Source: a virus
Taxonomy: Duplodnaviria > Heunggongvirae > Uroviricota > Caudoviricetes
DNA length: 41,069 nucleotides
Direction: 5' to 3' (one strand)
IMG/VR virus record: IMGVR_UViG_2737471864_000010
Span: 1 to 41,069 of that record
A model generated the notes under the pieces. It was not told the DNA's origin. It saw only the letters and a program-made list of their open reading frames with translations, and did no database searches. Of the stretch, positions 2,524-7,914 are shown piece after piece (position 1 is the first letter of the stretch; the number at the start of each line of letters is the position of its first letter). Both the position numbers and the translations under genes were made by a program.

Positions 2524-4359
2524 TCAATCAACCATTGATGGGAATGATGTTGCTATAGTAAGAACAGAACCTGAAGGAAATGATTGAATTGTAACATTTC
2601 CGTTAGCCGAAATATTGATCAGTGCTATAGCATTGTTTGTTCCACAAGGTATATAAGATATATCTTTTTCTGGCCTGAACCCTGAAGGAAGATTCATTAT
2701 AACCGTTCCAACAGAAGTTGCCCCTCCAGTTAAAACGCAATTTATATTTATAATACCATCCAGAGATTTTTGGTATGTCCCTTTCCTTGATTCTCCTATA
2801 ACCCATCCATTTTGTAACAGGCCAGATATTTCATATTGCTTACCACGCCACTGTGACCATGTGTTCTCACTTATCCTTCCTATGCGAGTAAAACACACTC
2901 TGCTACTTTCAGATATATATCCATATAATTTTTGCAACACTACTCCATCAACAAATCTATCGACCTGAATAACACCATCAAGAGGCCAAGAAGAATCATC
3001 AGGATTTGTTCTCCACCATGAAGTCCCCATATGAAACGTATTTGGTGGATATGAACTACCAACAAATTGCAAAGATGAACCATTGTTAGAAAATAAATTA
3101 GAACTTCCATTTACTACTTTGCATGGGCCATATATGTAATCAAGTAACTCATGGTGAATTTGGGCGCTAAAAACATAATTTGGATGAATTCCGCGACCAT
3201 CCACATATGGATTATCAAGCCAGTTACCTGCTGCGCCTCTGGAATCCTGCCACATACCGTAAGTGTCAAAAAACATGCACTTATATTGTTTAGCTTTAGC
3301 TCTAAGCACGGCTGTTAACTGTTCATACCATTTTTCATCACGTCCGTTTGGTGTGTCTGATGTTGAGTTTGGGGACATGATAATAATTGATTGCTGGGAA
3401 ACTGATTTGTTATTTCGTAACTTGGAAAGACCTCTATCTAATGCGTCTTTTACTTGATCCAATGTATAACCATAATATGGATCGTTAATTCCCCATCGTA
3501 AAACAATCAAATCAGCAGCAGAAAAAACAGACCATTCCCGATCAATATACCAATTACCCCATTCGTATAGAGTTTTACCTGAATGACCTAACGATGTATT
3601 TTTTACATCAATAATTCCATACCTTTTTGCATAAAAATCAGCGATAGTGGCTGGAGGCCATGACTCAGAGTTTACACCAACTATAGTGGAGTCTCCAGAC
3701 CATAAAATATATGTTTTTTTATCTGAAGTTACTCCGTCACCGTTAATAAGTTTATTTGTAACATAATTTAAATACTCTTGACCTATAACAAATCTATTCC
3801 TCGGATTTGTGTATGTTGATAACTGGACACCATCCCTATTAAAAACTCTTCCCCTTCTAGCATCGATTTCCACACCATAATCATTGTTAATAGAATCAAC
3901 AACCTCATCTTCATTAATTGTTAACACCGTCTGACCTGAGACGGATGAATTAATAGCGTCTTGTATTTTTGTTTCGATAGCGCCAGATCTTTTAATGTCT
4001 TTTTCAGCACGATAATATGCCTGATCTGGGTCATATTTTAACACATTCGGAAAATAGAACTGCTGTGCACCATATGCATCATAAACAGCCATAGAATGGC
4101 CTTGCACAGTTACGAACTTGGCAATCTGTCCGTTATATACCGGGTAACCAGCAGCGTTAATGATGATTGGTTGCGATACAGGAACGTGAGAGCCATCTTC
4201 GTTCTCCACATAAACCTGCACTTGATTCTGTGGGAGCGTAGGATCGGAATCTATCTTACCAATGAATATCTTGCCATTGCTTGCGGCCTGGAATTTTCTG
4301 GCTAACGTAAATAGTTGACTTGGCATTGAAATTATAACATTTGGCACAATATTTGACAT
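2524..4359 (-). CDS. Tailspike protein: P22-type N-terminal head-binding domain fused to an SGNH/GDSL-hydrolase-like (esterase) domain
   Basis: N-terminal ~110 aa (…NGKIFIGKIDSDPTLPQNQVQVYVENEDGSHV…VTVQGHSMAVYDAYG…NVLKYDPDQ) closely resembles the P22 gp9 head-binding domain; central region carries SGNH blocks WSGDSTIVG, RWGINDP and DGRGIHP. The 3' two-thirds is visibly AT-rich. Confidence 0.75.
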   Translation of the reverse strand: MSNIVPNVIISMPSQLFTLARKFQAASNGKIFIGKIDSDPTLPQNQVQVYVENEDGSHVPVSQPIIINAAGYPVYNGQIAKFVTVQGHSMAVYDAYGAQQFYFPNVLKYDPDQAYYRAEKDIKRSGAIETKIQDAINSSVSGQTVLTINEDEVVDSINNDYGVEIDARRGRVFNRDGVQLSTYTNPRNRFVIGQEYLNYVTNKLINGDGVTSDKKTYILWSGDSTIVGVNSESWPPATIADFYAKRYGIIDVKNTSLGHSGKTLYEWGNWYIDREWSVFSAADLIVLRWGINDPYYGYTLDQVKDALDRGLSKLRNNKSVSQQSIIIMSPNSTSDTPNGRDEKWYEQLTAVLRAKAKQYKCMFFDTYGMWQDSRGAAGNWLDNPYVDGRGIHPNYVFSAQIHHELLDYIYGPCKVVNGSSNLFSNNGSSLQFVGSSYPPNTFHMGTSWWRTNPDDSSWPLDGVIQVDRFVDGVVLQKLYGYISESSRVCFTRIGRISENTWSQWRGKQYEISGLLQNGWVIGESRKGTYQKSLDGIININCVLTGGATSVGTVIMNLPSGFRPEKDISYIPCGTNNAIALINISANGNVTIQSFPSGSVLTIATSFPSMVD

Positions 4360-4379
4360 AGTGAATCTCTATTTAAGGA

Positions 4380-4874
4380 ATGAATATGATTACTCATAAA
4401 GAATTAACCTCTTCACTCAACTACAACCCAGAAACAGGCGTCTTCACTTGGAAGATAGCTTCTGGTAGCTCCAGTATCGGAAAGGTTGCTGGATTTAAGA
4501 CGAACTCACAGGCCGACTACTTATCAATACGGATTAATGGAAAATCGTATCTTTGCCACCGACTTGCTTGGTTTTATATGAAAGGATGCTGGCCTAAAGG
4601 GTTAATTGACCATATTAACGGGGTTAAAAATGACAATAGAATTTCAAACCTAAGAGAAGTAACCAGAGGTCAGAATAAAACCAACAGCGTTTCATCATCC
4701 AATACAGGTATAAAAGGAGTTCATCTTCTTAAAGGGAAAAACACATATAAAGTTATGTTCAAACTAAAAGGTAAGTCTATTTTCCTTGGGTATACCGATG
4801 ATATTGAGCTGGCAGAATTAATGTCTATTGCATTCAGGGAAAAATATCATGGCGAGTTTGCTTGTTTTAGGTAA
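4380..4874 (+). CDS. HNH homing endonuclease with AP2-like DNA-binding domain (paralog 1 of 3)
   Basis: 164 aa; motifs NYNPETG, HRLAW, DHINGVKNDNRISNLR and C-terminal GIKGV…KYHGEF; AAGGA ribosome-binding site 7 nt upstream. Confidence 0.75.
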   Translation: MNMITHKELTSSLNYNPETGVFTWKIASGSSSIGKVAGFKTNSQADYLSIRINGKSYLCHRLAWFYMKGCWPKGLIDHINGVKNDNRISNLREVTRGQNKTNSVSSSNTGIKGVHLLKGKNTYKVMFKLKGKSIFLGYTDDIELAELMSIAFREKYHGEFACFR

Positions 4875-4907
4875 TGTCTGTCATTTAATTTGCTCCAGAT
4901 ACAAGGA

Positions 4908-5007
4908 ATCGCCGCAGCATGGCTACGGTTGGCGTTTGTTTGGTTTTTGAACTACGAAAATTTCGTAGTGCTATCCATCAAGGCCATCGCCGCAGCATGG
5001 CTACGGT
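4908..5007. repeat. Two copies of a 22-bp direct repeat (ATCGCCGCAGCATGGCTACGGT) flanking a perfect 19-bp palindrome (ACTACGAAAATTTCGTAGT)
   Basis: Direct reading; copies at about 4908-4929 and 4986-5007, palindrome at about 4951-4969. Confidence 0.6.
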
Positions 5008-5019
5008 GAATTTTTGGCA

Positions 5020-5044
5020 TAAAAAAACCCAGCCGAAGCTGGGT
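5020..5044 (-). terminator. Intrinsic terminator downstream of ant
   Basis: Minus strand reads GACCCAGC-TTCG-GCTGGG followed by TTTTTTT. Confidence 0.65.
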
Positions 5045-5062
5045 CATTGCGTTGGTTATCTG

Positions 5063-5986
5063 TCAGTAGTTATGTACTGAAGGAGGTAATTCTTTATTCT
5101 TAAGTCTCATCCATGCGGAAAGATTCGCTGGTCCGTCTGGCTCATTAATATCAACATCTCGTGTGTGGTTTATTAAAACGTCTCTCGCCATTCCTATAAC
5201 ATACGAGAACTCATGACCGTAGTCGTAACATCTGCCGGAATAGTTCGATTGAATTTGTTTTAGCGCCGGATACAATTCGCGGAATAATGCCTGTGAGCGG
5301 TTGGCATAATCCCATAACCATACGAGGCTGTTTGCTTCTTTTGCAGAAAGCTCGTTGGTTTTCTTCTCTTGTTTGCAGATGAACTCACCTTCAAGCGGAA
5401 CGCGAGCTGCAAGTGACAGTGCTTCGGTAAACTGCTCCTCACTAATTTCTTTGTACGAACATCCAAAATGGGATTTCAGTGACGACCACATGGTGATCAT
5501 CGCCTTAGCCTGTTTTTCTTTTGGCAGAGACTGACCGCGACTCATGACGAGTTGTTTAATGGCTTCCTGCTGTTCAGTGGTGATTTTACCCTGCAACGCC
5601 TTTTTAGCTTTGCGTGGGTTAACTACATGGCCTTTAGTCCAGTACTCATAGAGCACATCGTCACACTCTTCCTGATACTGGATTACCTTGTCGCGGATTT
5701 CAGGGCGGACTTTGTTTGGACTGATGGTTTGCAACCAGCCATTAAGTTTACGTAAAGCAAGGCAAATCATGTTCTGCACACCGCCAACTGAAGGTATTGC
5801 GATTTCCACAATACCTTTAGCAAATCTTTGTTTTAACTTTGTAAACTGTGAAGCCCAATCCATACCCATTCCCTCAACGATAGGTTTCATTGGGGTGTAC
5901 GGCTCACCGTTGTGATTGACAACATAAAGCTCTGCGCCGTGGAATGGTACATTGATAGTAGATACTGCTGTTGCTATACTTTTCAT
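5063..5986 (-). CDS. ant: Antirepressor (Ant-like) protein
   Basis: 307 aa located downstream of an Arc-like gene and divergent from mnt, as in the P22 immI region; N-terminal region resembles phage antirepressor domains. Recognition from memory. Confidence 0.55.
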   Translation of the reverse strand: MKSIATAVSTINVPFHGAELYVVNHNGEPYTPMKPIVEGMGMDWASQFTKLKQRFAKGIVEIAIPSVGGVQNMICLALRKLNGWLQTISPNKVRPEIRDKVIQYQEECDDVLYEYWTKGHVVNPRKAKKALQGKITTEQQEAIKQLVMSRGQSLPKEKQAKAMITMWSSLKSHFGCSYKEISEEQFTEALSLAARVPLEGEFICKQEKKTNELSAKEANSLVWLWDYANRSQALFRELYPALKQIQSNYSGRCYDYGHEFSYVIGMARDVLINHTRDVDINEPDGPANLSAWMRLKNKELPPSVHNY

Positions 5987-6049
5987 GTCGTTAATTCCTA
6001 TGCGTGGTTTTACGATACCGAAGCCCTGACTGTTACCGCAGTTGGGGCT

Positions 6050-6253
6050 TCAACTTTCTGCTCTATCAGTTATATCTTTCCCTTCATATACTTCACCTAT
6101 ATTGCTAATGCTGGCAGAACATCCAAGATGCTTGTATCTTATGATGTCCAACACGCAGTCACTACACAGCATCCGACCTGTTTCTTTAGAGTAAATGTAT
6201 GTTTGATCAGCGTCTGATTCGCTAATGCCGCAGAAACAACATTCTTTACTCAT
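6050..6253 (-). CDS. Small Cys-rich (zinc-ribbon-like) hypothetical protein between arc and ant
   Basis: 67 aa with CCFC…CSDC cysteine pairs; start overlaps the arc stop. Confidence 0.4.
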   Translation of the reverse strand: MSKECCFCGISESDADQTYIYSKETGRMLCSDCVLDIIRYKHLGCSASISNIGEVYEGKDITDRAES

Positions 6254-6390
6254 ACCGTTATCCCCTCTCTCTTCAGGCTGTCCATCACCCGTTTAATTAC
6301 TTCTGCACTAAATGAGCGACACTCTTCCTTTGCTTTCTCTTCAAGGATTTTTTCTAACTTCTCTGGCATACGCAGTGTTTTTACCTTCAT
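6250..6390 (-). CDS. arc: Arc-like ribbon-helix-helix repressor (below the ORF-track length cutoff)
   Basis: Hand-called 46-aa ORF MKVKTLRMPEKLEKILEEKAKEECRSFSAEVIKRVMDSLKREGITV with a GGAGG ribosome-binding site; resembles P22 Arc. Confidence 0.5.
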   Translation of the reverse strand: MKVKTLRMPEKLEKILEEKAKEECRSFSAEVIKRVMDSLKREGITV

Positions 6391-6489
6391 TGCATCCTCC
6401 GTTGTATGTGGTACGCATACATAGTATTTAGGTACGCATTGATAGTCAATAGATACCTACATATCCTGTGGTAAAAAATTATTCAGGAT
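6391..6489. promoter_or_regulatory. Divergent immI control region (Pant/Pmnt-type) with operator-like palindromes
   Basis: Intergenic region between divergent arc and mnt-like genes; contains repeated GGTACGCAT and the palindrome ATTGATAGTCAAT. Confidence 0.4.
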
Positions 6490-6495
6490 GTGCCG

Positions 6496-6753
6496 ATGTC
6501 TGATCGTAAGTACAAAAACCCTCAAGTGAATCTGAGGCTTCCTGTAGAGATAAAGGAACGTCTTATTGAACTGGCTGAGGCTAATTCTCGTTCATTAAAT
6601 GCTGAGATGGTCGCGGCACTTGAAGCATGGACCGAAAAAAATAAACACATTCAAGCACTAGACCTTGCAACTATAGCATCACGATTGATAGATCTTGAAC
6701 ATGATGTTGAGAAGTTGAAATGCATGTATAGCAACAATAAAGACGAAAGTTAG
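6496..6753 (+). CDS. Ribbon-helix-helix (Arc/Mnt family) DNA-binding protein, second Mnt-like paralog
   Basis: Track ORF starts at a GTG at 6490; the ATG at 6496 with an AGGA site is preferred. The N-terminus NLRLPVEIKERLIELAEANSRSLNAEMVAAL fits the RHH pattern. Confidence 0.55.
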   Translation: MSDRKYKNPQVNLRLPVEIKERLIELAEANSRSLNAEMVAALEAWTEKNKHIQALDLATIASRLIDLEHDVEKLKCMYSNNKDES

Positions 6754-7040: not shown

Positions 7041-7460
7041 TTAGTGCTTGTATAGGTTGAACTCTCTATCAAGCCATATAACAAAAAATGTCGATCCAAG
7101 ACGATAACCAACCATGGCTTTCAAATCATCAAATCTAAAAGCCAAGAAATGATCTACGTCTTCCGTTATATGACTGGGGATACCTGCTTTAATTGCACCC
7201 CTTGCAATCTTCTCAAATCCAAGCTTATGCCTACCTTGCTGCTTAATATCTGCCCATGTTAGTTGACTTAATCTGTATAATTTATCAGCTAAGCCAGCTT
7301 TCTCATCTTTTTGGCATTTCGTTATGCAGTGAGAGCTTTGGATGTAACAGAATGAAAATTTCGGTTTCTTTTGATCTGAATTCCCCCCTGACTGCGGCCC
7401 TAACTTTAACTTACCTGTAGATTCAGCAGGGGGGATAATCCTTTTAGATTTTCTTGCCAT
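7041..7460 (-). CDS. Hypothetical protein, candidate toxin partner of the upstream Panacea-domain protein
   Basis: 139 aa from MARKSKRIIPP…; starts 4 nt after the upstream stop. C-terminus …GYRLGSTFFVIWLDREFNLYKH loosely recalls RelE/YoeB-type toxin C-termini. No confident family assignment. Confidence 0.4.
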   Translation of the reverse strand: MARKSKRIIPPAESTGKLKLGPQSGGNSDQKKPKFSFCYIQSSHCITKCQKDEKAGLADKLYRLSQLTWADIKQQGRHKLGFEKIARGAIKAGIPSHITEDVDHFLAFRFDDLKAMVGYRLGSTFFVIWLDREFNLYKH

Positions 7461-7464
7461 CTCG

Positions 7465-7914
7465 TTAGTTAATCCGAGTTGCAAAGTACTCTGCCATCTC
7501 CTTAGAACTAATTTCAGAACCACCAACACCCTCAATATAGTTTGATCTCCATGGTGACTCTTCGTGTGTCATGTTCCTCAGTTTCCAGGCAGAAAATTGC
7601 CCAAAAACATCCCAGACTTCTTCTAATAGCTCTAACTGTTCTTCGCTGAATTTTTCAGCATCAAAAGACTCTGGAGAAGGGATAGCACCATTACCATATT
7701 GTTTATAACGGTGATAAAGCTCAGGGACAACAGGGCCATGCATCCAAGCTTCCATCTTATTCTGAAAAAGAGGCTCGCCAAGCAACGCCAATGAAAAACC
7801 CTGAGCATAGTAAACAAGCTTTTGTAATTTTAAATTAGAGATTGCGTCACCGCTATCCTCGTCACACCGCGACAGGAAGTAGTCGGCGACATCAAAACAA
7901 GTAAGCATGAACAC
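7465..7914 (-). CDS. DUF4065 / Panacea-domain protein (COG3600, GepA-like), candidate antitoxin
   Basis: 149 aa with the characteristic NLKLQKLVYYAQGFSLALLGEPLF…EAWMHGPVVPELY block; GGAGGTG ribosome-binding site. Recognition from memory. Confidence 0.6.
   Translation of the reverse strand: MFMLTCFDVADYFLSRCDEDSGDAISNLKLQKLVYYAQGFSLALLGEPLFQNKMEAWMHGPVVPELYHRYKQYGNGAIPSPESFDAEKFSEEQLELLEEVWDVFGQFSAWKLRNMTHEESPWRSNYIEGVGGSEISSKEMAEYFATRIN

What the first reader, a model, noticed from the sequence alone, without database searches (positions are those of the whole stretch)
4875..5062. 22-bp direct repeats flanking a perfect palindrome in the convergent gap between HNH paralog 1 and ant
ATCGCCGCAGCATGGCTACGGT occurs twice 78 bp apart, flanking the perfect palindrome ACTACGAAAATTTCGTAGT. 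Neither element looks like a terminator. This could be a protein-binding site, an insertion scar from the endonuclease gene, or a small mobile-element remnant.
Basis: seen in the sequence. Interest (0 to 1): 0.4.

Follow-up and report, generated by a model that had tools for sequence, protein, structure and literature searches.

The report
Antirepressor-gene relic between duplicated leader hairpins
The repeats and palindrome are real, but they are a leftover 56-bp scrap of a second type of antirepressor gene, bracketed by two copies of the conserved hairpin sequence that precedes the tailspike gene in P22-like phages; it is a scar of ordinary phage mosaic recombination and has nothing to do with the HNH endonuclease gene.

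Summary
Observation confirmed: ATCGCCGCAGCATGGCTACGGT lies at 4908-4929 and 4986-5007, and the palindrome at 4951-4969.

The window is a P22-like prophage. One 22-mer, just upstream of the tailspike ribosome-binding site, is conserved across P22-like phages whatever lies upstream. It folds as a 7-bp hairpin only in the tailspike-sense RNA.

The 54 bp at 4935-4988, palindrome included, match codons about 50-67 of KilAC-type antirepressor genes (90.7%, E=8e-12) and carry an in-frame stop. Intact genes of this type sit 0.4-0.6 kb upstream of the tailspike start in JEP4-like relatives. P22 itself carries a longer relic of about 93 nt between 17-bp repeats. Most relatives have no relic and one 22-mer, which is exactly the product of deletion between the repeats.

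The HNH gene is unlinked. The same HNH (98-99% nt identity) sits next to the short form in four E. coli genomes, and the long form is common without HNH.

In the intact genes the palindrome is a hairpin kept by compensatory changes (95% paired, 5 of 9 pairs covary). Its function is unknown.

Verdict: an ordinary recombination relic, with one interesting by-product.

The parts
5016..5045 (-). Intrinsic terminator of ant (t_ant): an 8-bp stem with 5 G-C pairs, a 4-nt loop and a U-run
   Evidence: Found by the terminator scan. Conserved in Emek, CUS-3, Kapi1 and P22, and annotated as a terminator in Emek, epsilon34 and P22.
4986..5007 (-). R copy of the 22-mer (ant-proximal). In most long-form relatives it is a diverged or hybrid sequence. 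Here it is 22/22 identical to the L copy.
   Evidence: R' variants include ATCGCCGCTTAGTTGCTGCGGT and ATAGCCGCTGAGTAGCTACGGT. L equals R only in the window, the UTAK-1 remnant and L014.
4935..4988 (-). Relic of a KilAC-type antirepressor gene (codons about 50-67, sense on the minus strand), with an in-frame TAG replacing GAG
   Evidence: The window piece scanned against all phage records hit phiKp_30 gene 080 at 88.7%, E=3e-8. A local BLAST scaled to a 2.3-Gb database gave 90.7% over 54 nt, E=8e-12, against gene nt 148-201. Gene alleles are listed.
4951..4969 (-). The palindrome. It is the copy of a hairpin that is conserved by covariation inside intact KilAC-type antirepressor genes (motif GE-x-Y-E-I-F-V).
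   Evidence: Covariation counts are (genes plus relics; 19 gene alleles: 95.3% paired, 5 of 9 pairs changed on both sides).
4930..4940 (-). Right-hand junction. TGGCG is the flank found next to the 22-mer in JEP4-like phages. TTTGTT (AACAAA on the minus strand) is microhomology shared by that flank and the KilA-type gene.
   Evidence: JEP4-like flanks read ...GTAACAAATACCA-22mer or ...TACTC-22mer, and the gene reads ...GCAAACAAA|ACAACC.
4908..4929 (-). L copy of the 22-mer: the conserved leader stem-loop (CCGUAGC-CAU-GCUGCGG in minus-strand RNA) about 10 nt upstream of the tailspike Shine-Dalgarno sequence
   Evidence: Present once in the short form. Conserved with at least four different upstream contexts. 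Pair counts on 27 variants are. It folds on its own in the short form and in P22.
4867..4897 (-). Ancestral tailspike Shine-Dalgarno (GGAG) and vestigial start ATG ACA GAC ATT ACC TAA (MTDIT*). This is the tailspike-side end of the conserved boundary sequence.
   Evidence: The same sequence starts intact tailspike genes in L006, L008, L009, Emek, CUS-3 and P22.
4380..4874 (+). HNH endonuclease gene (Pfam HNH_3). Context only: it lies antisense in the tailspike leader and is not associated with the repeats.

Best explanation
The 188-bp spacer between ant and the old tailspike start is a recombination palimpsest within the fast-changing 'ant moron' of P22-like phages.

Read in the direction of transcription (minus strand), it holds:
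- the ant terminator;
- a second (R) copy of the 22-mer;
- the resident (L) 22-mer, which is the conserved stem-loop of the tailspike mRNA leader;
- the tailspike ribosome-binding site.

Inferred history:
1. An unequal, illegitimate crossover joined an 'ant-terminator-22-mer' module of the short form to the inside of a KilA-type gene. That gene lay, as in JEP4-like phages, a few hundred bp upstream of another 22-mer-tailspike module. This step duplicated the 22-mer.
2. Later deletions trimmed the KilA-type gene. One of them occurred at an AACAAA microhomology.
3. Recombination or slippage between the two repeats removes the relic precisely and gives the short form, which is the commonest state.

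The perfect 22/22 identity in this window is unusual. It is attributed to copy correction or template switching between the repeats, or to this haplotype being close to the original joint.

What is shown: the homologies, the allele series, the lack of linkage to HNH, and hairpin conservation in the intact genes.

What is inferred: the order of events, the idea that the L hairpin acts on stability or processing of the tailspike mRNA, and the idea that the relic itself has no function of its own.
For: (1) Short, long and P22 forms. Kapi1, Emek and CUS-3 have one 22-mer and lack exactly 78 bp. Seventy-two E. coli genomes hold the long form. All 11 distinct long variants have exactly 100 nt from the start of L to the end of R. 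P22 has an insert about 110 bp long that carries a relic of about 93 nt between 17-bp repeats TGGCTACGGTGAATTTT. Deleting between those repeats reproduces the short form.

(2) Relic homology. Window 4935-4988 matches gene nt 148-201 at 90.7%, E=8e-12. The P22 spacer matches gene nt 149-228 at 80%, E=3e-11. The independent database hit was E=3e-8. The gene family is real: tblastn matches in 229 phage records, annotated as antirepressor or KilA.

(3) Source genes are in the right place. Fourteen of 19 JEP4-like loci have an intact KilA-type gene ending 0.4-0.6 kb upstream of the tailspike start, in the same orientation. None of the long-form loci does. The 5-nt flank next to L (TACCA or TACTC) and the relic centre (EIF-type or TKS-type) match the haplotypes seen in JEP4-like phages.

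(4) The 22-mer belongs to the tailspike side. It is conserved with four or more unrelated upstream contexts: short 64 loci, mnt-operator-adjacent 20, JEP4-like 18, long 7, P22-type 3. CUS-3 annotates the spacer as 'bsq1; boundary sequence'.

(5) HNH is not linked to the repeats.

(6) Literature. [quoted passage not shown] Short boundary sequences and illegitimate recombination are the two recognised routes to phage mosaic joints, and deletion between repeats of about 50 bp has been described in mycobacteriophages (PMC3029335).
Against: The order of events cannot be read from the sequences. The short form could be ancestral and the relic an insertion with a 17-22-bp duplication.

The E. coli long form and the P22 form have different right-hand junctions, so two events, or secondary events, are needed.

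Two relic centre types (GAAATTTTC and ACAAAAAGT) each match a different live gene allele, while the relic flanks are shared. This needs either recurrent formation or patchy recombination with intact genes.

The relic hairpin is intact in all three relic forms, and no haplotype has a broken stem. The two 22-mers can pair with each other to give a compound stem-loop of about 100 nt. Selection on the relic is therefore not excluded.

Identical L and R copies arose in at least two haplotypes that differ at the same base (the window and L014). A purely neutral relic does not predict that.
Confidence: 0.8

Rival explanations
1. The long form is a selected RNA element. In the ant/late read-through transcript, the R 22-mer, the relic hairpin and the L 22-mer fold into a compound stem-loop of about 100 nt between the ant terminator and the tailspike ribosome-binding site. 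This structure would tune tailspike expression through processing, stability or extra termination, or would act as a decoy for whatever recognises the hairpin in KilAC-type ant mRNAs.
For: The minus-strand fold is -61.7 kcal/mol with z=-4.8. The consensus fold of 10 long haplotypes keeps R:L pairing. All one-sided changes there are G-U to G-C or the reverse, and the variable part of R' falls in an internal loop. Several pairs are G-U, which are possible only in the minus-strand RNA. The hairpin stems are unbroken in all relic haplotypes and in the P22 relic. L and R are identical in two different haplotypes.
Against: Two direct copies of a quasi-palindrome pair with each other automatically, so the R:L pairing may carry no meaning. 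Most relatives lack the element: 64 short against 10 long in an arbitrary sample, and about 9% of E. coli genomes that have the boundary carry the long form. There are few independent changes, so covariation outside the relic hairpin is not significant. The hairpin variants in the relics are simply those of live gene alleles.
Confidence: 0.13
2. The repeats are a target-site duplication or scar left by the HNH homing endonuclease cassette at 4380-4874.
For: Only proximity: the L copy lies 34 bp from the HNH stop codon.
Against: The same HNH (98-99% nt identity) is found with the short form in ET734, K71-77, WP4-S18-ESBL-08 and ET490. The Kapi1 HNH (42% aa identity, same site) is also next to the short form. 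The long form occurs without HNH in many prophages and in P22. The repeats do not flank the HNH gene.
Confidence: 0.01
3. The 100-bp unit is a miniature mobile element (MITE or IS remnant) with a 22-bp target duplication.
For: It is flanked by direct repeats, it is present or absent at an otherwise identical site, and it contains an internal palindrome.
Against: It has no terminal inverted repeats. There is a single copy in the window. Every other genomic match to the core lies inside a KilAC-type gene or a decayed copy of one. A 17-22-bp duplication is far longer than transposase target duplications (established knowledge). The P22 and E. coli forms have different ends.
Confidence: 0.03
4. 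The palindrome is an operator for a dimeric DNA-binding protein, such as an Arc/Mnt-type repressor of the adjacent immI region.
For: It has perfect dyad symmetry, and it lies near arc and mnt (6250-6753).
Against: Across alleles the two arms change together, keeping Watson-Crick complementarity but not sequence: ACTACGAAA, CCTACAC, TTTTACAA and GGTTACGAAA. That pattern is expected for a hairpin, not for a protein recognition site. The site is absent from most relatives that have the same arc, ant and mnt. From my own recollection, it does not resemble the published P22 Arc or Mnt operators; this was not tested here.
Confidence: 0.03

Closest known systems
Phage P22 ant-gene 9 spacer (NC_002371 15994-16203)
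   Same: It has the same terminator, the same 22-mer leader sequence and the same tailspike start. It also holds a KilAC-type gene relic with an intact hairpin, bracketed by direct repeats.
   Different: The P22 relic is longer: about 93 nt, codons about 46-76, from another allele (frame ELEGETYKKIVGRK...). Its repeat is 17 bp (TGGCTACGGTGAATTTT) and its right-hand junction is different. I found no paper in the searchable library that describes this relic.
'Ant moron' of P22-like phages, with degraded ant genes (Villafane, Casjens et al. 2008, PMC2629481)
   Same: It is the same genomic interval between genes 16 and 9. That paper documents rapid insertion and deletion flux there, and truncated antirepressor genes in HK620 and Scho1.
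   Different: Here the degraded gene is of the KilAC type, not the P22 Ant type. It has been reduced to 54 bp and sits downstream of an intact P22-type ant.
Conserved 'boundary sequences' at lambdoid module junctions (the model as cited in PMC3029335; CUS-3 annotation 'bsq1')
   Same: The 22-mer, ribosome-binding site and first five tailspike codons form a short block that stays conserved while the sequence on either side is swapped.
   Different: Here the block is duplicated. The 22-mer also looks like a functional RNA hairpin rather than a mere recombination linker.
Deletion or insertion between short direct repeats in mycobacteriophages Island3 and Brujita (PMC3029335)
   Same: A present/absent segment is bounded by short direct repeats and can be explained by recombination between them.
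   Different: The repeats here are 17-22 bp rather than about 50 bp, and the enclosed segment is an identifiable gene fragment.
sar antisense RNA of immI (Rfam RF00262)
   Same: It is a small structured RNA element of the same region, and it is present in this window at 5988-6055.
   Different: It is unrelated in sequence, position and strand. Nothing in 4875-5062 reaches the gathering score of any Rfam family.

Membership tests
Gene remnant of a KilAC-type antirepressor | Statistically significant, collinear nucleotide homology to intact family members | tested here: met
   90.7% over 54 nt, E=8e-12 at a database size of 2.3 Gb. The independent phage-database hit was E=3e-8.
Gene remnant of a KilAC-type antirepressor | Loss of coding capacity (truncation or stop codon) | tested here: met
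   Only codons about 50-67 of about 242 remain. GAG has become TAG in frame (GGC CTT GAT GGA TAG CAC TAC...), as read.
Gene remnant of a KilAC-type antirepressor | Intact homologues occupy the same locus and orientation in relatives | tested here: met
   Fourteen of 19 JEP4-like loci have the intact gene ending 0.4-0.6 kb upstream of the tailspike start, on the same strand.
Module boundary sequence / conserved tailspike leader | The same short sequence is kept next to the tailspike start while the upstream DNA differs | tested here: met
   Four or more upstream classes share the 22-mer and the ribosome-binding site. CUS-3 annotates it as 'bsq1'.
Structured RNA leader hairpin (the 22-mer) | Base pairs are maintained through substitutions, and the preferred strand is consistent with transcription | tested here: inconclusive
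   In 27 variants the inner 7 pairs are about 95% paired, with pair types CG/UA/UG, UG/CG and AU/GU. Many G-U pairs would be A-C mismatches on the + strand. Covariation is modest (score reached by 3 of 500 shuffles), and a +3 register also pairs at 72%.
Homing-endonuclease insertion scar | The repeats flank the endonuclease gene, or co-occur with it and are absent without it | tested here: not met
MITE / IS remnant with target-site duplication | Terminal inverted repeats, multiple dispersed copies, and a short (2-14 bp) duplication | tested here: not met
   No terminal inverted repeats. Single copy in the window. Other matches are genes or pseudogenes of one family. The duplication is 17-22 bp.
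Intrinsic terminator | A G+C-rich stem-loop followed by a U-run on the transcribed strand | tested here: not met
   The scan finds only t_ant at 5045-5026. The palindrome is followed by an A-run on the minus strand and by GCTATCC on the + strand.
Known RNA families (Rfam 15) | A match that reaches the family's gathering score | tested here: not met
   Only sar (RF00262, 85.7 bits) at 5988-6055 passes. Hits overlapping 4875-5062 score 15-24 bits against thresholds of 30-54.
Arc/Mnt operator | Sequence match to the operator half-sites and binding by the repressor | not tested
   The only evidence is the indirect covariation argument. Binding cannot be tested with these tools.

The most novel reading that the evidence does not exclude
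The palindrome is a copy of a previously undescribed cis-acting hairpin. In live KilAC-type antirepressor genes of Enterobacterales phages, this hairpin is maintained by compensatory changes that alter the amino acids on both sides. In this reading, its survival in three independent relic forms, always between the ant terminator and the tailspike leader hairpin, reflects co-option. The compound R-hairpin-L structure would regulate or process the tailspike message, or would titrate the factor that recognises the ant-gene hairpin.
Probability: 0.15. Interest if true: 0.6.

Novelty: new member of a known kind. Interest (0 to 1): 0.35.

Why it matters
For this finding, the main value is a correction. 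The feature is not an endonuclease scar, an operator or a mobile element. It is a datable trace of how the immI / 'ant moron' region is rebuilt by illegitimate recombination and then cleaned up by deletion between short repeats. P22, the E. coli long form and the short form look like successive states of that process.

Two by-products can be tested directly:
- A hairpin embedded in the coding sequence of KilAC-type antirepressor genes has strong covariation support. It may be an unrecognised control element for antirepressor expression, and therefore for prophage induction.
- A small conserved stem-loop lies in the tailspike leader of P22-like phages.

The analysis also flags a probably spurious PGAP gene call across the repeats.

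Tried and rejected
- Rfam scan of 4300-6600 at a permissive E-value found only sar. The hits STnc370, istR and SNORA5 over the spacer are far below threshold.
- The terminator/promoter scan found no promoter in the spacer, and only t_ant as a terminator.
- A window-wide search for further copies of the 22-mer or the palindrome found none.
- Small-ORF reading: the 53-aa + strand ORF at 4919-5080 is annotated as 'hypothetical protein' in UTAK-1. Its start lies in the variable loop of the 22-mer and it is not annotated in the other long-form loci inspected, so I rejected it.
- Pfam scan of phiKp30_080 gave no family at E<0.01. The 'KilAC/antirepressor' label therefore rests on annotations in other records.
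- boxB/nut-like reading of the gene hairpin: rejected from my own knowledge of boxB, because the loop varies (AAAAA, AAUUU-type, GAUUU, UAAAA).
- A second hairpin in the P22 relic and in EIF-type genes (ACAACTT-CTGAAA-AAGTTGT) is not conserved in other alleles. I did not pursue it.
- The CUS-3 paper that defines 'bsq' could not be retrieved.
- The genome-contig scan gave only 13 loci, of which 7 were usable for the hairpin.
- I could not decide from the sequences whether the short form is ancestral or derived.

Full report
**1. What is in the sequence**

The window is a P22-like (Lederbergvirus-type) prophage. It has the following features:
- tailspike with a P22-type head-binding N-terminus, 2524-4359 (-)
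- HNH_3 endonuclease, 4380-4874 (+)
- P22-type antirepressor Ant (P22_AR_N + P22_AR_C), 5063-5986 (-)
- sar antisense RNA, 5988-6055 (+; Rfam, 85.7 bits)
- arc, 6250-6390 (-)
- mnt, 6490-6753 (+)

The 22-mer lies at 4908-4929 and 4986-5007, and no such pair is expected by chance. The 9+1+9 palindrome lies at 4951-4969.

Two things were missed:
- A canonical intrinsic terminator for ant lies at 5045-5026 plus its U-run.
- Read on the minus strand, 4867-4897 is GGAGCAAATTAA-ATGACAGACATTACC-TAA. This is the ribosome-binding site and the first five codons (MTDIT) of a standard P22-type tailspike gene.

The spacer is therefore the classical ant-to-gene-9 spacer. The HNH gene lies antisense inside the tailspike leader, followed by a second, divergent tailspike start.

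**2. Relatives define three forms of the spacer**

- **Short form.** Kapi1, Emek, CUS-3 and N7 have one 22-mer and lack exactly 78 bp, which is the 56-bp core plus one repeat. CUS-3 annotates this spacer as 'bsq1; boundary sequence'.
- **E. coli long form.** Seventy-two of 5,426 complete E. coli genomes hold the long form, among 770 that match part of the spacer. In the loci I inspected it lies between ant and an intact tailspike gene, with no HNH. An IMG/VR scan added 19 loci. All 11 distinct variants have exactly 100 nt from the start of L to the end of R.
- **P22 form.** P22 has an insert of about 110 bp bracketed by a 17-bp direct repeat, TGGCTACGGTGAATTTT.

In an arbitrary IMG/VR sample of 112 loci holding the tailspike start, the counts were as follows:

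| Upstream type | Loci |
|---|---|
| Short form | 64 |
| No ant, mnt-operator-adjacent | 20 |
| No ant, JEP4-like | 18 |
| E. coli long form | 7 |
| P22 form | 3 |

Deleting between the repeats, in P22 or in the window, reproduces the short form apart from lineage-specific single-base differences.

**3. The core is a gene fragment**

The only non-P22-like hit to the 56-bp core was inside a 242-aa gene of Klebsiella phage phiKp_30 (88.7%, E=3e-8). That gene belongs to a large family annotated as antirepressor, KilA or KilAC-domain, with tblastn matches in 229 phage records including Stx phages. A separate nucleotide search also found P1-like ant1 genes.

With the database size set to 2.3 Gb, the homologies were as follows:

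| Spacer | Gene positions | Identity | E-value |
|---|---|---|---|
| Window 4935-4988 | nt 148-201 | 90.7% | 8e-12 |
| O111-type long form | nt 161-201 | 95% | 4e-9 |
| P22 spacer | nt 149-228 | 80% | 3e-11 |

The sense strand of the relic is the minus strand, the same direction as ant and the tailspike. The frame is broken by TAG where the genes have GAG.

Intact genes of this family are native to the same locus. In JEP4 the order is Rha, KilA, orf, mnt (reverse strand), 22-mer, tailspike start. Fourteen of 19 JEP4-like loci have the gene ending 0.4-0.6 kb upstream of the tailspike start, in the same orientation. No long-form locus has it.

The right-hand junction of the E. coli relic lies at an AACAAA microhomology. 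This is shared by the gene (...GCAAACAAA|ACAACC) and by the JEP4-like flank (...GTAACAAA|TACCA-22mer). The two flank variants (TACCA and TACTC) and the two relic centres (EIF-type and TKS-type) pair up just as they do in JEP4-like phages.

Other decayed copies of the same gene region occur in unrelated E. coli prophage-like elements.

**4. The 22-mer**

The L copy, the ribosome-binding site and the first tailspike codons stay constant while the upstream DNA belongs to at least four unrelated classes. The 22-mer therefore belongs to the tailspike side.

In minus-strand RNA it folds as CCGUAGC-CAU-GCUGCGG, both in the short form and in P22. Across 27 distinct variants the seven inner pairs are about 95% paired. 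Observed pair types include C-G / U-A / U-G, U-G / C-G and A-U / G-U. Most sequence variation lies in the loop. The many G-U pairs would be A-C mismatches on the + strand.

Statistical support is modest. Three of 500 shuffles reach the observed covariation score, and an alternative register also pairs at 72%. I read the 22-mer as a probable leader stem-loop of the tailspike mRNA. Any role in stability or processing is inference.

**5. The R copy**

In most long-form haplotypes R' differs from L at 5-6 of 22 positions, clustered in the middle (for example CTTAGTTG or CTGAGTAG in place of CAGCATGG). In P22 only the half nearest the terminator is 22-mer-like, and the rest continues the gene homology.

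Perfect L=R identity is seen only in three places:
- this window;
- a prophage remnant in E. coli UTAK-1, which is 100% identical over 4871-5070 but has no HNH and no ant;
- IMG/VR locus L014, where both copies carry the same A-to-G change.

This suggests copy correction between the repeats, or a haplotype close to the original joint. I cannot tell which.

**6. The HNH gene is irrelevant to the repeats**

E. coli ET734, K71-77, WP4-S18-ESBL-08 and ET490 carry the same HNH (98-99% nt identity) at the same site, with a spacer exactly 78 bp shorter. ET734, K71-77 and a fifth strain, ET479, were aligned; all three have typical short-form bases where the window has its private ones. Kapi1 has an HNH that is 42% identical in protein sequence, at the same site, next to the short form.

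**7. The palindrome is a conserved hairpin in the live genes**

Nineteen distinct gene alleles were compared, from phages and from Buttiauxella, Citrobacter, Kluyvera, Pantoea and other genomes. All carry a 7-10-bp inverted repeat at the motif GE-x-Y-[ETK]-[IK]-[FS]-V.

The stem sequences differ between alleles:
- ACTACGAAA / TTTCGTAGT
- GCACTACAC-AAAAA-GTGTAGTGC
- ACCTACAC / GTGTAGGT
- ACCTACAAAA / TTTTGTAGGT
- TTTTACAA / TTGTAAAA
- TTTTACAC / GTGTAAAA
- GGTTACGAAA / TTTCGTAACC

The flanking amino acids also differ between alleles: H/V, T/G, F/K, G/T and Y/V.

Pair counts:

| Measure | Value |
|---|---|
| Cells paired | 95.3% |
| Pairs with changes on both sides | 5 of 9 (38 cells) |
| Covariation score, observed | 0.523 |
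| Covariation score, shuffled mean | 0.169 (0 of 500 shuffles reach the observed value) |
| Covariation score, slid controls | at most 0.09 |

This is good evidence for a selected nucleic-acid structure inside the coding sequence. It has no U-run on either strand, so it is not a terminator. Its function is unknown.

The relic centres in the window (EIF-type) and in O111-type prophages (TKS-type) are identical to live alleles. The P22 relic has a further compensated variant (GACCTACAA-AAAAA-TTGTAGGTC).

**8. Could the long form be functional?**

The minus-strand spacer folds at -61.7 kcal/mol (z=-4.8). R pairs with L, and the relic hairpin sits at the tip. RNAalifold keeps this architecture in 10 haplotypes, with only wobble-type one-sided changes.

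However, two copies of a quasi-palindrome pair with each other automatically. Most relatives lack the element, and the independent substitutions are too few for a test. I give this reading about 0.13.

**9. Context from the literature**

Villafane et al. 2008 named this interval the 'ant moron'. They described it as being in rapid flux, with degraded ant genes in some phages, and noted that it affects read-through into the tailspike gene (PMC2629481).

Short boundary sequences and illegitimate recombination are the two recognised routes to mosaic joints, and deletion between repeats of about 50 bp has been documented in mycobacteriophages (PMC3029335).

[quoted passage not shown] That shows the + strand of this region can matter in some relatives, although the G-U pattern here favours the minus strand.

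I found no paper in the searchable library that describes the KilAC-type relic in the P22 spacer or the hairpin inside these genes.

**10. Verdict**

It is explained as a relic of a KilAC-type antirepressor gene, bracketed by a duplicated tailspike-leader sequence. It is one more member of the known class of recombination scars in the ant moron, and it is unrelated to the HNH gene. The interest of the finding itself is low to moderate. The covarying hairpin inside the live antirepressor genes is the part that deserves follow-up.

Noticed in passing
Loci L004 2510-2535, L029 1008-1035, L030-L032, L035-L114, L228-L237 (intact KilAC-type antirepressor genes); the copy in the window is at 4951-4969: A 7-10-bp hairpin inside the coding sequence, at the motif GE-x-Y-E/T/K-I/K-F/S-V, is kept by compensatory changes that alter the flanking amino acids. 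In 19 alleles it is 95% paired, 5 of 9 pairs covary, and 0 of 500 shuffles reach the covariation score. It has no U-run, its function is unknown, and I found no description of it in the searchable literature.
   Followed up: partly
L115 (P22, NC_002371 15994-16203): The ant-gene 9 spacer of P22 itself contains a relic of a KilAC-type antirepressor gene about 93 nt long (80% identity, E=3e-11), between 17-bp direct repeats TGGCTACGGTGAATTTT. The relic has two predicted hairpins.
   Followed up: partly
window 4359-4884: The HNH gene lies antisense between a vestigial tailspike start (MTDIT*, 4884-4867) and a second, divergent tailspike start at 4359, only 20 bp from the HNH start codon. The tailspike must therefore be transcribed through the HNH gene in antisense. 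Kapi1 has a 42%-identical HNH at the same site, so this is an old and diversified occupant of that position.
   Followed up: partly
window 5988-6055 (+): A full-length sar antisense RNA (Rfam RF00262, 85.7 bits against a threshold of 43) lies at the arc-ant junction, so the immI circuit looks intact.
   Followed up: no
L005 (E. coli UTAK-1, NZ_CP157165 3775339-3775538): A decayed prophage next to bioA-ybhB carries a 200-bp stretch 100% identical to window 4871-5070, but with a truncated tailspike, no HNH and no ant. PGAP annotates a 63-aa 'hypothetical protein' (WP_347938120.1) across the repeats, which is probably spurious.
   Followed up: partly
L033 1495-1540 and L034 1499-1545 (E. coli chromosomes, between a phage DNA ejection protein gene and primase-like genes): Unannotated decayed copies of the same KilAC-type gene region, with the hairpin intact, occur in other prophage-like elements in many E. 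coli genomes.
   Followed up: no
window 7041-7914 (-): Two overlapping ORFs lie here. One resembles the Panacea-domain protein annotated at the corresponding place in UTAK-1. They may form an antitoxin/toxin-type pair in the ant moron.
   Followed up: no
L147 (IMG/VR contig 3300045988_070738): One short-form phage also has an intact KilA-type gene 2.6 kb upstream of the tailspike start. Phages with both antirepressor types, the postulated intermediate state, therefore exist.
   Followed up: no
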